From Octopus vulgaris (taxonomy: Eukaryota), in NCBI GenBank assembly GCA_951406725.2, contig OX597827.1, forward strand, positions 26,846,001 through 26,910,000: a DNA stretch of 64,000 bases, written 5' to 3'. The position numbers and the translations under genes are program-made. Position 1 is the stretch's first letter. The number at the start of each line of letters is the position of its first letter. Below the pieces are notes generated by a model. The model was not told the origin of the DNA. It saw only the letters and a program-made list of their open reading frames with translations, and made no database searches. Below are positions 30,980-60,374 of the stretch, in pieces.

Positions 30980-31192
30980 AGCAGCAACTTGGAAGAACGG
31001 TTAGCACATTGGACAACATGATAAGCAGCATCTATTCTGACTCTTAACGCTGTGAGTTCAAATTCCACCGAAGTCGACTTATCCCTTCCTCCTTTCGTGG
31101 TCGATACATTGAATACCAGTTGCGTACTGGGTCGATCTAATCGACTGGGCCCCTCCCCACAAAATCCAGGCCTTGTGCCTATTGTAGGAAGG

Positions 31193-31252: not shown

Positions 31253-31796
31253 TCTTACTTTAGTTTTCTATCTTCAGACTTTTACACACAGAAACATACG
31301 CAAACCATTTGTAGTTACACATTCTCCCTGACTCATCTGTCGCCCTTGTGGCAAATAAAGGAATTAATATCATTGATGTTGTTATTATTGTTGTTGCTGC
31401 GGTTGTTGAGAGATTCTAATCAGATCAGAGGTGTTCGAGGCAACCGTAGCTTTCTCGATATTCTGTACATCAGTTTCTACATAGTCCAAAACGTCCTTCC
31501 TTATACCCAGACTGGTTAGTATGTAAACTGAAGGCAGACGCTTCTATTTCTAACAGATCTAGTGAGCAACCATATGAGGCTGCTCTGTAACCCAATACTA
31601 GTAGCAATAGTATGTTACAAACTATTGTGTGTGTGAGAGCATGTGTGTCTGTGTATACACACAAGACACACATACACATACTAAAGACAGAATGAGATAA
31701 AAATAAAATAAATATATTTTATATACGTGTACAAAGTTAATATACAAATCCATATAGACACATACACGACACTCATGCTAAACACATGAACTTCAC

Positions 31797-31840
31797 AAAC
31801 TGTTACTCAGAGTTTCACATAACCGTTCATCAGACAGTTT
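31797..31840 (-). ncRNA. Canonical minimal type-I hammerhead ribozyme (Penelope-like element type)
   Basis: Minus strand AAACTGT-CTGATGA-ACG[GTTA]TGT-GAAA-CTC[T]GAG-TA-ACAGTTT: perfect 7-bp stem I, intact core, stem II, quasi-palindromic stem III and a GUA cleavage triplet. Confidence 0.85.
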
Positions 31841-31970
31841 TAATAATACAGACTACTAAAGACTTTCTGTTGATTGTGATACTCTGAGTAACAGTTTTTT
31901 CTCAGCTTTAATAAAACAATATTTTGCTCCACCTTTGGTATTCGAGTACTATTTCCACCACTTTGCGTAA
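31797..31970. mobile_element. Penelope-like pseudo-LTR fragment with an inverted partial duplicate
   Basis: Inverted copy GTGATACTCTGAGTAACAGTTT at 31876-31897, AATAAA at 31910, and GGTATTCGAGT.CTATTT shared with the copy at 56255-56450. Confidence 0.7.
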
Positions 31971-32749
31971 CAGCTATGTGTTATTGGTAGTATTTGCGGT
32001 TGTAGTGGTTATATTGGTTGTGGTGGTGGTGGTGGTGGTGGTGGAGGTAGTCATTGTGGTAGTGTTGGTGTTGGTGGTGGAGGTAGTCATTGTGGTAGTG
32101 GTGGTGGTGGAGTGGTTATAGTGATAGTTATTGTGTTGATAGCAGCGGTTATAGTGAACTGTAGTTACTGCAGTAGTGTTGATGGAAGCTATTGTGATGG
32201 TGTTGGTGGAAGTGGTAGTTAATGCGGTGGTGGTTATTATCGTGACGGCAGTGGAGATGGTGGTAAAACTGAATAAGCGGGTGGGGGCAGATTCATTTCA
32301 AGACGTCTTGAAACGAAAACAAAGAAACATTCCTAAAAGCCGGAACAATGGCAACAACAACAACAACAATTTTAATAACTGCAATAAATAAATAAATGAA
32401 TAAAGGAGAGTAAGGAAATGGTAAAGAGAGAATCTGGGTGCGGCGCGTTTAAAGTTGAGATATTTCTTGAAGTATTTGTTATTGGTGAGTGATTTAGATG
32501 AGGGGAGGGGAGGTGAGGTGGTAGTGGGAGGGGAAATGGTGTTTGGATTAGAGTAACGGTGTAAGGAAGATAATAGAAGAGGTGAGGGAGAGGAAGGTGT
32601 GTTAAAGTAAAACAGACAGGTTGGTGGGCAGAAGGGGTGAGACAAGGAGAGACGGGGAAAGTGGTTCAGAGATACAGGGAGAGAGAGAGAGAGAGAGATG
32701 GAGAGAGATGCACAGGGAAAGATGAGGAAAGATGCTAGAGGAGACAGAA

Positions 32750-56254: not shown

Positions 56255-56450
56255 TATACTTTGTTAATGAAGCTGCAAAGACATCACTAAATCTGCTACT
56301 CAGAGTTTCATGTTCCCACTCGTCGGAACGGGAACGTGAAACTGAGTAACAGTTTTTGTTATGTCTTTGCAGCTTTATTAATAAAATATATTACTCTACA
56401 TCCGGTATTCGAGTGCTATTTTCCCCACCTTGTTTCACATTTATGTGCTT
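56255..56450. mobile_element. Penelope-like pLTR fragment forming a palindrome of about 135 bp with head-to-head hammerhead remnants
   Basis: TAATGAAGCTGCAAAGACATCAC..CTGCTACTCAG pairs with CTGAGTAACAG..GTTATGTCTTTGCAGCTTTATTA; same family as 31797-31970. Confidence 0.75.
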
Positions 56451-56483
56451 ACTCTGACACACGCACACCACACACCACGCACG

Positions 56484-59553: not shown

Positions 59554-59930
59554 CAGGATGATTCAAAAGTCGCCATTCATAGGAATAATTTATCTTTTTT
59601 CTTTTATAAAAAACAGCTTATAAGAACAGGTTTTTTTTATTTAACAGGCTCTGAATGGTTACAATTGTTTTGATTACACATTGCAATACGTTTACCCCAC
59701 TCATTGTGAACTCGTAATTGCACATCTGGTGACACGTATGCAAATGAGTTGGTGATGCGTTCCTTCAAATGATTTAGGTCTTTTATCTTTCCACGATACA
59801 CCATACCTTTCAAATGCCCCCAAAGATAGAAATCGGGAGGGGTCAGATCAAGGGATCTAGGGGATCTTATAAACTGTTTCATTATAAAAAGTAATTTTCT
59901 CCTATGTGTGGAGACTTTTAAATCATCCTG
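59554..59930 (-). mobile_element. Internally deleted Tc1/mariner element (377 bp) retaining both TIRs and the transposase C-terminus
   Basis: TA|CAGGATGATTCAAAAGTCGCCATTCATAGG ... CCTATGTGTGGAGACTTTTAAATCATCCTG|TA; ORF 59637-59882 contains PRSLDLTPPDFYLWGHLKGMVY...LKERI...RIAMC. Confidence 0.9.
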
Positions 59931-60374
59931 TATTTCACATTAGGAATCCTTGAAAAGCAAATTCATAAACCTAACATATTTATTCTTCTTCTACAAGAAT
60001 ACTCTTCGCAGAGGCTTTGAAGTTTCGGCTTTCTTAACCCTCATCCGATGAAGAGTAAAAGCAGGGCTGAAACTTCGAAATCACCATCAACACTATATTT
60101 ATGGAAGAAGTAGGTGTATACACATAGTCCATGTTTAATAGCTTCCGTCTCTCTCGTCCCTTCCTCTCTCCCTTTCTCTCTCCCCCTCTCTCCCCCTCAC
60201 TCTATTGGTCATACAGACTGCATTTATTCTCCTGACTCTCGTTCCTCATTCTTTTGCCTTGTCTTGAAGTGCACAGCTGTGAATGTTTAGGCCTGTTTAT
60301 GTGCGAACCAGGCGCTGTTTGTCATAGAATGGTAAACATACGTGACGGCGTTTATAAACCTAAGTAGGTGAGTA

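What the first reader, a model, noticed from the sequence alone, without database searches (positions are those of the whole stretch)
31797..31840. Fully intact minimal type-I hammerhead ribozyme on the minus strand
Seen: the minus strand reads AAACUGU-CUGAUGA-ACG(GUUA)UGU-GAAA-CUC(U)GAG-UA-ACAGUUU. Every catalytic-core base is present, stem I has 7 perfect pairs, and predicted cleavage follows GUA (between 31804 and 31803). Established: minimal HHRs with a loop-less or 1-nt-loop palindromic stem III are the hallmark of Penelope-like element pseudo-LTRs and are thought to work as dimers. Inference: if transcribed on the minus strand, this could self-cleave, probably aided by a second copy, and truncate a host transcript.
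Basis: partly seen in the sequence, partly recalled or inferred. Interest (0 to 1): 0.72.

Follow-up and report, generated by a model that had tools for sequence, protein, structure and literature searches.

The report
Hammerhead relic of a Penelope retroelement
The self-cutting RNA motif is really there, but it is one of thousands of leftover end-pieces of a known kind of jumping gene (a Hydra-type Penelope element), and here it sits beside its own mirror copy, which is predicted to zip it shut, so it is likely ordinary and inactive.

Summary
The 44-nt minimal type-I hammerhead at 31797-31840 (minus strand) is confirmed base by base and is not chance (0 of 300 strict shuffles). It is not a lone ribozyme. 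It is the short arm of a ~190-bp head-to-head pair of pseudo-LTR fragments: a second, broken arm with the Penelope 'tail' lies on the plus strand at 31863-31983. The family has thousands of copies (3046 exact hits of a 17-mer, 305 with this canonical core). Young members sit in the pseudo-LTRs of tandem 710-aa RT/GIY-YIG elements with Hydra-clade motifs, and window-type arms follow decayed Hydra ORFs. A published Hydra hammerhead (Hydra-2_aMil) has the same inner stem I, stem III and cleavage site. In context a perfect 17-bp antisense stretch is made first and traps the cleavage site: the cleavage-ready fold costs about 29 kcal/mol, against about 6-11 in the autonomous element. No same-strand partner lies nearby and genomic copies decay neutrally, so truncation of a host transcript is unlikely. 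The scan noted inverted Penelope termini and a CCGA-core hammerhead earlier in other families of this genome. Side result: 3910 copies carry a U4C core.

The parts
31797..31840 (-). Minimal type-I hammerhead, canonical core, palindromic 1-nt-loop stem III; predicted cleavage 31804/31803
31791..31862 (-). Short arm: 5'-truncated pseudo-LTR of a Hydra-clade Penelope-like element, ending before the family's AATAAA end
   Evidence: 82-93% identical over 56-72 aligned bases to 11 close family arms; 85% over 48 nt to the autonomous pLTR in L179; 91% over 47 nt to the arm behind a decayed Hydra ORF in L243
31863..31916 (+). Long arm: inverted pseudo-LTR fragment with a dead hammerhead (A6U, A14U, 6-nt deletion in stem II, stem I 5' strand lost)
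   Evidence: alignment with family arms; coordinates
31917..31983 (+). Penelope 'tail': about 70 nt that in autonomous tandems is the start of the 5' UTR after the pseudo-LTR
   Evidence: 68% over 114 nt to L179 pLTR plus tail; tail on exactly one arm in 39 of 48 arm pairs
31881..31897 (.). Perfect 17-bp inverted repeat of 31797-31813; on the minus-strand RNA it is made first and pairs with stem III, the cleavage site and the stem I 3' strand
56258..56456 (-). Second, independent palindromic copy of the same family (U4C core, predicted hairpin -72 kcal/mol)

Best explanation
This is the hammerhead of a Hydra-clade Penelope-like retrotransposon, left in an old, ORF-less insertion made of two inverted pseudo-LTR stubs, and at this locus it is predicted to be folded shut and likely inactive. 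Shown: the motif, the head-to-head arms with a tail on one arm, thousands of dispersed relatives, the same hammerhead in the pseudo-LTRs of intact RT/GIY-YIG elements, and window-type arms 1.1-1.2 kb behind decayed Hydra ORFs. Inferred mechanism: in the parent, tandem pLTR-ORF-pLTR RNA carries two hammerheads 3.4 kb apart whose palindromic stems III pair into a dimer and cut about 175 nt before the start codon, probably helped by the element's protein. Insertion copies the RNA from two start points about 70 nt apart (pLTR end and tail end); when both cDNAs stop early, a short inverted pair like this one results. Any RNA read through this stub meets the antisense arm first and forms a long hairpin over the cleavage site. 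The canonical core has survived here by chance, as in about 1 in 10 comparable arms.
For: Family: 62 matches from 40 scored of 1029 candidates; 3046 exact 17-mer hits, control 1; 305 with a canonical core, control 0. Architecture: 48 head-to-head arm pairs under 400 nt apart in 143 loci, tail on exactly one arm in 39, neither in 8, both in 1; arms mostly end in (TA)n or (CA)n. Parent: L144 has inverted arms around a GIY-YIG C-terminal ORF; L179 is pLTR-ORF-pLTR-ORF-pLTR with two 726-codon open frames; RWK, DKT, YRDD, CxxC and CxH present. Window-type arms behind decayed ORFs in L242 and L243 (32-40% identical to the young protein) and a related arm in L247 (61-70%). Occlusion: cleavage-ready fold 29.0-29.8 kcal/mol above the ensemble in 3 of 3 windows that include the antisense arm, against 6.2, 11.1 and 7.0 in 3 windows of L179; stem I probability above 0.1 in 0 of 13 palindromic arms and 14 of 38 others. 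Decay: in 26 of 30 arms chosen only on the 3' half, G5 is changed in 5 and G8 in 2, like stem II CpG sites (5 and 4). Literature: opposite-strand pairs of minimal hammerheads 100-700 bp apart tied to truncated PLEs, and no monomer cleavage (PMC4209133); inverted 5'-truncated copies and one-sided tails (PMC8557442); two RT start sites and a protein-assisted hammerhead (PMC11167929).
Against: No cleavage assay and no stranded raw reads exist here, and equilibrium folding ignores kinetics and proteins; even in L179 one of three windows gave stem I probability 0.0. The window copy keeps every core base while its partner arm is badly decayed, which is what selection would also produce. The direct parent of the window's subfamily was seen only as decayed ORFs. 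The Hydra CxCx5C linker reads C-N-F-x5-C in the young protein, and Pfam gave 0 families for it. The tail is about 70 nt, longer than the 30-40 nt described.
Confidence: 0.9

Rival explanations
1. The copy is an active, possibly co-opted ribozyme that cuts a minus-strand host RNA, dimerising in trans with abundant transcripts of the young family or starting from a promoter inside the element, downstream of the antisense arm.
For: All core bases and a 7-bp stem I are intact. Stem III self-duplex -7.9 kcal/mol, and the young family has the same palindrome with a different central base. Isolated, the motif forms stem I with probability 0.43-0.48.
Against: Even 30 nt of upstream context without the 17-bp repeat drops stem I to 0.0. 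Stem II probability is 0.04 in isolation. About 10% of comparable arms keep the core (305 of 3046). No exon-like ORF among 19 window ORFs scanned with Pfam (two weak hits below cut-off on a low-complexity frame). Published metazoan minimal hammerheads cleave poorly even as dimers.
Confidence: 0.05
2. The palindromic stub matters as a hairpin, not as a ribozyme: read-through RNA forms double-stranded RNA that is edited by ADAR or diced into small RNAs that could silence the active Hydra family.
For: Predicted hairpin of -50.8 kcal/mol over 31760-31920; both strands fold; many family copies are palindromes.
Against: No editing or small-RNA data seen. The window's arms are diverged from each other and 68-85% identical to the young family. 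One A>G difference in one low-depth contig lies outside the element. This would be a side effect compatible with the best explanation.
Confidence: 0.1
3. The ~190-bp palindrome is a MITE-like DNA transposon or a retrozyme that spreads as its own unit.
For: Many short copies of similar size (arm distance 58-82 nt in most pairs) with inverted ends.
Against: Arms are asymmetric (tail on one side), junctions differ from copy to copy (21-362 nt), the same arms flank ORF pieces of any length, and no tandem hammerhead monomers occur at this locus.
Confidence: 0.03

Closest known systems
Hydra-clade Penelope-like elements and their hammerheads, e.g. Hydra-2_aMil and Hydra-1_Obim (Craig et al. 2021, PMC8557442; passages, section 11, supplement searches and part 2 of 59 read)
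   Same: C-terminal GIY-YIG, RWK, DKT, CxxC/CxH motifs, (TA)n insertion, inverted truncated copy and one-sided tail. Hydra-2_aMil's listed hammerhead has the same 4-bp inner stem I, CUGAUGA core, ACUC-N-GAGU stem III and cleavage after A.
   Different: A separate family: Hydra-1_Obim has another hammerhead; here stem II is only 2-3 bp with a mostly GNRA loop, the linker's second cysteine is Phe in the young family, the tail is about 70 nt and the unit is 3.4 kb.
Minimal PLE hammerheads (Cervera and de la Pena 2014, PMC4209133; parts 1-2 of 4 read; Lunse et al., not held, known from the review PMC6765202 passages)
   Same: Type I, small palindromic helix III, dimer requirement, mostly found as scattered pieces of truncated PLEs, including opposite-strand pairs.
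   Different: The G10.1-C11.1 pair is A-U here and not kept across subfamilies; helix II is shorter than the 6-8 bp reported.
Poseidon element PAc of Anolis (Frangieh et al. 2024, PMC11167929; parts 1-2 of 4 read)
   Same: Tail explained by two RT start sites; hammerhead near the pLTR-ORF junction.
   Different: Different clade; there the cut is inside the ORF, here about 175 nt upstream of the ATG.
Non-LTR retrozymes (bioRxiv 10.64898/2026.07.22.740005; part 1 of 5 read)
   Same: Non-coding, PLE-derived, type-I hammerhead.
   Different: Retrozymes are head-to-tail tandem units; this is a head-to-head stub of a coding element.

Membership tests
Type-I hammerhead ribozyme (minimal, dimer type) | Conserved core C3-A9, G12-A14, A15.1-U16.1, H17 | tested here: met
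Type-I hammerhead ribozyme (minimal, dimer type) | Stems I and II; palindromic stem III able to pair between two copies | tested here: met
   7 bp and 3 bp; self-duplex -7.9 kcal/mol
Type-I hammerhead ribozyme (minimal, dimer type) | Fold accessible in its genomic context | tested here: not met
   stem I probability 0.0, about 29 kcal/mol penalty; prediction only
Type-I hammerhead ribozyme (minimal, dimer type) | Stem covariation across copies | tested here: inconclusive
   57 arms: covariation score 0.077, reached by 236 of 500 shuffles; the 3' half was invariant by selection
Type-I hammerhead ribozyme (minimal, dimer type) | Self-cleavage | not testable with these tools
   needs an in vitro assay
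Rfam hammerhead families | Score at gathering threshold | tested here: not met
Penelope-like elements | Single ORF with RT and GIY-YIG endonuclease flanked by pseudo-LTRs in tandem | tested here: met
   in relatives L179-L181; YRDD motif; weak BLASTP match to a GIY-YIG-positive PLE of this genome, E 1e-7; the window copy itself has no ORF (one search used the other family's proteins)
Penelope-like elements | Inverted 5'-truncated copy and tail at one end | tested here: met
   window element; 39 of 48 pairs
Hydra clade | RWK motif; DKG changed to DKT | tested here: met
   residues 37 and 113
Hydra clade | CxxC and CxH around the conserved E and N of the endonuclease | tested here: met
   residues 666 and 694
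Hydra clade | CxCx5C linker | tested here: inconclusive
   C-x-F-x5-C at residue 561: second Cys missing in the young family
Hydra clade | Insertion into (TA)n | tested here: met
   young copies end in (TA)n; the window copy's own flanks are decayed
Hydra clade | Placement in an RT phylogeny with named Hydra elements | not tested
   named reference proteins were seen only as text in the supplement; compared by eye
Non-LTR retrozyme | Head-to-tail tandem units each with a hammerhead | tested here: not met
   one descriptor hit in the window; partner arm inverted

The most novel reading that the evidence does not exclude
This octopus-like genome holds a large, recently active Hydra-clade lineage whose hammerhead has spread through successive subfamilies with a U4C core (3910 exact copies) and a two-pair GNRA-capped stem II lacking the 10.1-11.1 pair, and whose commonest short insertions are self-occluding palindromes. 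If these variants cut only with the element's protein, the lineage is a natural mutational series for asking what Penelope hammerheads are for, and the palindromic stubs could be a built-in source of double-stranded RNA that restrains the active family.
Probability: 0.2. Interest if true: 0.5.

Novelty: new member of a known kind. Interest (0 to 1): 0.15.

Why it matters
For this locus, little: it is one of hundreds of intact-looking cores among thousands of relics of a known kind of retroelement. It is a useful caution that an intact hammerhead consensus in an animal genome says nothing about activity until the flanking inverted copy is folded with it. The family is of moderate use to specialists: intact tandem Hydra-clade elements at 97-99% identity offer a testable system for the open question of what Penelope hammerheads do, and the U4C subfamilies are a ready comparison.

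Tried and rejected
Rfam: no hammerhead family at gathering or at E<=10; best hits were miRNA hairpin models on the palindrome. First parent search with Pfam GIY-YIG (150 scored of 6136) returned mainly a different, Neptune-like family; only 1 of 30 loci (L038) had an arm, adjacent through a TA repeat, so rejected as parent. Pfam and PDB sequence searches with the Hydra protein gave nothing useful. Expression: no RNA holder listed; contigs of 4 runs guessed to be RNA gave patchy low-depth cover without strand or end information, so nothing is concluded. Selection at the orthologous locus: contigs of 2 of 3 DNA-type runs span 31795-32007 with one difference, outside the hammerhead; too close to test conservation and possibly not independent of the assembly. 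Host gene: no convincing exon among 19 window ORFs scanned of 93 listed. Covariation: 57 of 72 non-redundant arms aligned (15 left out by eye, mostly for truncated or junction-derived 5' flanks); no signal above shuffles. Lunse et al. was not available. Earlier scan notes near this place or by sequence: none. That this family is not in print rests on paper searches, on passages of PMC13282606 (no mention of hammerhead or Hydra) and on a supplement search with 0 hits for two 17-mers and one peptide (wrapped and cut lines could hide a match; Repbase and Dfam were not searchable).

Full report
Observation. All core positions are present, stem I has 7 Watson-Crick pairs, stem II has A-U, C-G and G.U closing GUUA, stem III is a palindrome with one central U, and the cut would lie between 31804 and 31803. 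A type-I descriptor found this single hit in the window; dinucleotide-preserving shuffles gave a loose hit in 4 of 300 and an equally good one in 0 of 300. Rfam has no model that scores it.

Surroundings. The window is microsatellite-rich animal DNA from a 2.8-Gb assembly; that it is octopus-like is my inference from size and recalled repeat types. Just upstream on the minus strand lies a perfect 17-bp complement (31881-31897) of the hammerhead's 3' part. It belongs to a second, inverted arm on the plus strand (31863-31983) whose hammerhead is dead (A6U, A14U, deletion in stem II) and which runs on into a 70-nt extension. The finding is therefore the short arm of a head-to-head pair of about 190 bp.

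Family. A genome search gave 62 matches from 40 scored of 1029 candidates. An exact 17-mer spanning GAAA to the cut site occurs 3046 times (control 1); 305 of these have a canonical CUGANGA at the right distance. In 143 fetched loci there are 48 head-to-head pairs under 400 nt apart, with the extension on exactly one arm in 39, on neither in 8 and on both in 1. Arms mostly end in (TA)n or (CA)n. Craig et al. describe this layout for Penelope-like elements: an inverted 5'-truncated copy and a tail at one end (PMC8557442, passages). Cervera and de la Pena already noted opposite-strand pairs of minimal hammerheads linked to truncated elements (PMC4209133).

Parent. Searching with upstream sequence of another arm exposed a young subfamily, 95-97% identical among the 40 scored. 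One locus holds inverted arms around an endonuclease ORF end; that protein matches 150 scored places at 96-100% identity among 18469 candidates. L179 is a full tandem, pLTR-ORF-pLTR-ORF-pLTR, unit 3430 bp, with the hammerhead in sense in each pLTR, 37 nt before the pLTR end and about 175 nt before the ATG; the 'tail' is the next 70 nt of 5' UTR. The 710-aa protein has RWK, DKT, YRDD, CxxC and CxH, the Hydra-clade marks of Craig et al. section 11, though the CxCx5C linker has Phe for its second Cys; Pfam gave no family for it, and 1037 database proteins match it, almost all unnamed among the 120 listed. Their supplement lists Hydra-2_aMil with the same inner stem I, stem III and cleavage site, and an octopus Hydra-1_Obim with a different hammerhead. 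The window's own subfamily is older: arms like it lie 1.1-1.2 kb behind decayed ORFs 32-40% identical to the young protein in L242 and L243, with the tailed arm inverted upstream in L242. The abundant Neptune-like family found first is not the parent.

Can this copy cut? As an isolated 56-mer it forms stem I with probability 0.43-0.48, stem II 0.04, stem III under 0.01, so it needs a partner; the stem III self-duplex is -7.9 kcal/mol. With its upstream arm, which is transcribed first, the RNA folds into a hairpin of -50.8 kcal/mol and the cleavage-ready state lies 29-30 kcal/mol above the ensemble, against 6-11 for the autonomous pLTR. Across fetched arms with a canonical core, stem I probability exceeded 0.1 in 0 of 13 with an antisense arm upstream and 14 of 38 without. 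The neighbouring arm cannot be the dimer partner, being on the other strand and broken. The other family copy in the window (56258-56456) is also a palindrome. Published metazoan minimal hammerheads do not cut as monomers and cut weakly as dimers; the Anolis one needed the element's protein and was not needed for insertion in vitro.

Selection. In 26 of 30 arms picked only on their 3' half, G5 is changed in 5 and G8 in 2, the same CpG-type decay as stem II (5 and 4). An alignment of 57 arms shows 89% pairing but no covariation beyond shuffles (236 of 500), with the caveat that the 3' half was fixed by the search. Inserted copies thus decay neutrally, while the kept core and palindrome between subfamilies and across to a coral element point to selection in the active parents. 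One in ten comparable arms keeps the canonical core, so an intact core here needs no special explanation. Against my reading: the window's short arm is fully intact while its long arm is heavily decayed, and no experiment or stranded read set tests activity.

Side result. The commonest 5' core in the unbiased sample is CCGA, a U4C change (15 of 26 at that column), with 3910 exact copies genome-wide (pattern allows A or T at the stem III centre). The base before GAAA varies among subfamilies, so the 10.1-11.1 pair is not kept. U4C is known from a viroid, where it lowers activity in vitro but permits infectivity (PMC3088659, passage). An earlier scan note reports a CCGAUGA core in a retrozyme of this genome (not checked).

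Verdict. Real motif, known kind: a Hydra-clade Penelope pseudo-LTR hammerhead in an old inverted stub, likely inactive at this site. New family member, interest 0.15.

Noticed in passing
window 56258-56456: Second palindromic stub of the same Hydra family, U4C core, near-perfect predicted hairpin (-72 kcal/mol).
   Followed up: partly
G000 genome-wide: 3910 exact copies of a U4C-core version of this hammerhead; the base at 11.1 is T, G, A or C by subfamily, leaving a 2-bp GNRA-capped stem II.
   Followed up: partly
L179 (G000:C12:43652500-43662499), L180, L181: Intact, very young Hydra-clade elements (726-727-codon frames) in tandem and inverted arrays; probably still or recently active.
   Followed up: partly
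L040, L045 and others: A second abundant young Penelope family, Neptune-like, 781-codon frame; no canonical hammerhead found within 1.5 kb of the endonuclease by my descriptor.
   Followed up: no
L038:160-340: An inverted arm whose junction falls at stem I, giving one hammerhead a ~38-bp perfect-like stem I; suggests stem I complementarity can seed the inversion.
   Followed up: no
L147:1-1764 (10 kb before the window): 588-codon open frame of a non-LTR reverse transcriptase (RVT_1 and zf-RVT).
   Followed up: no
window 59640-59939 (-): 100-aa frame resembling a Tc1/mariner-type transposase C-terminus (motif recalled; no Pfam hit).
   Followed up: no
window 31040-31165: Very high-copy short repeat with deep contig cover in all four putative RNA runs; likely a SINE.
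   Followed up: no
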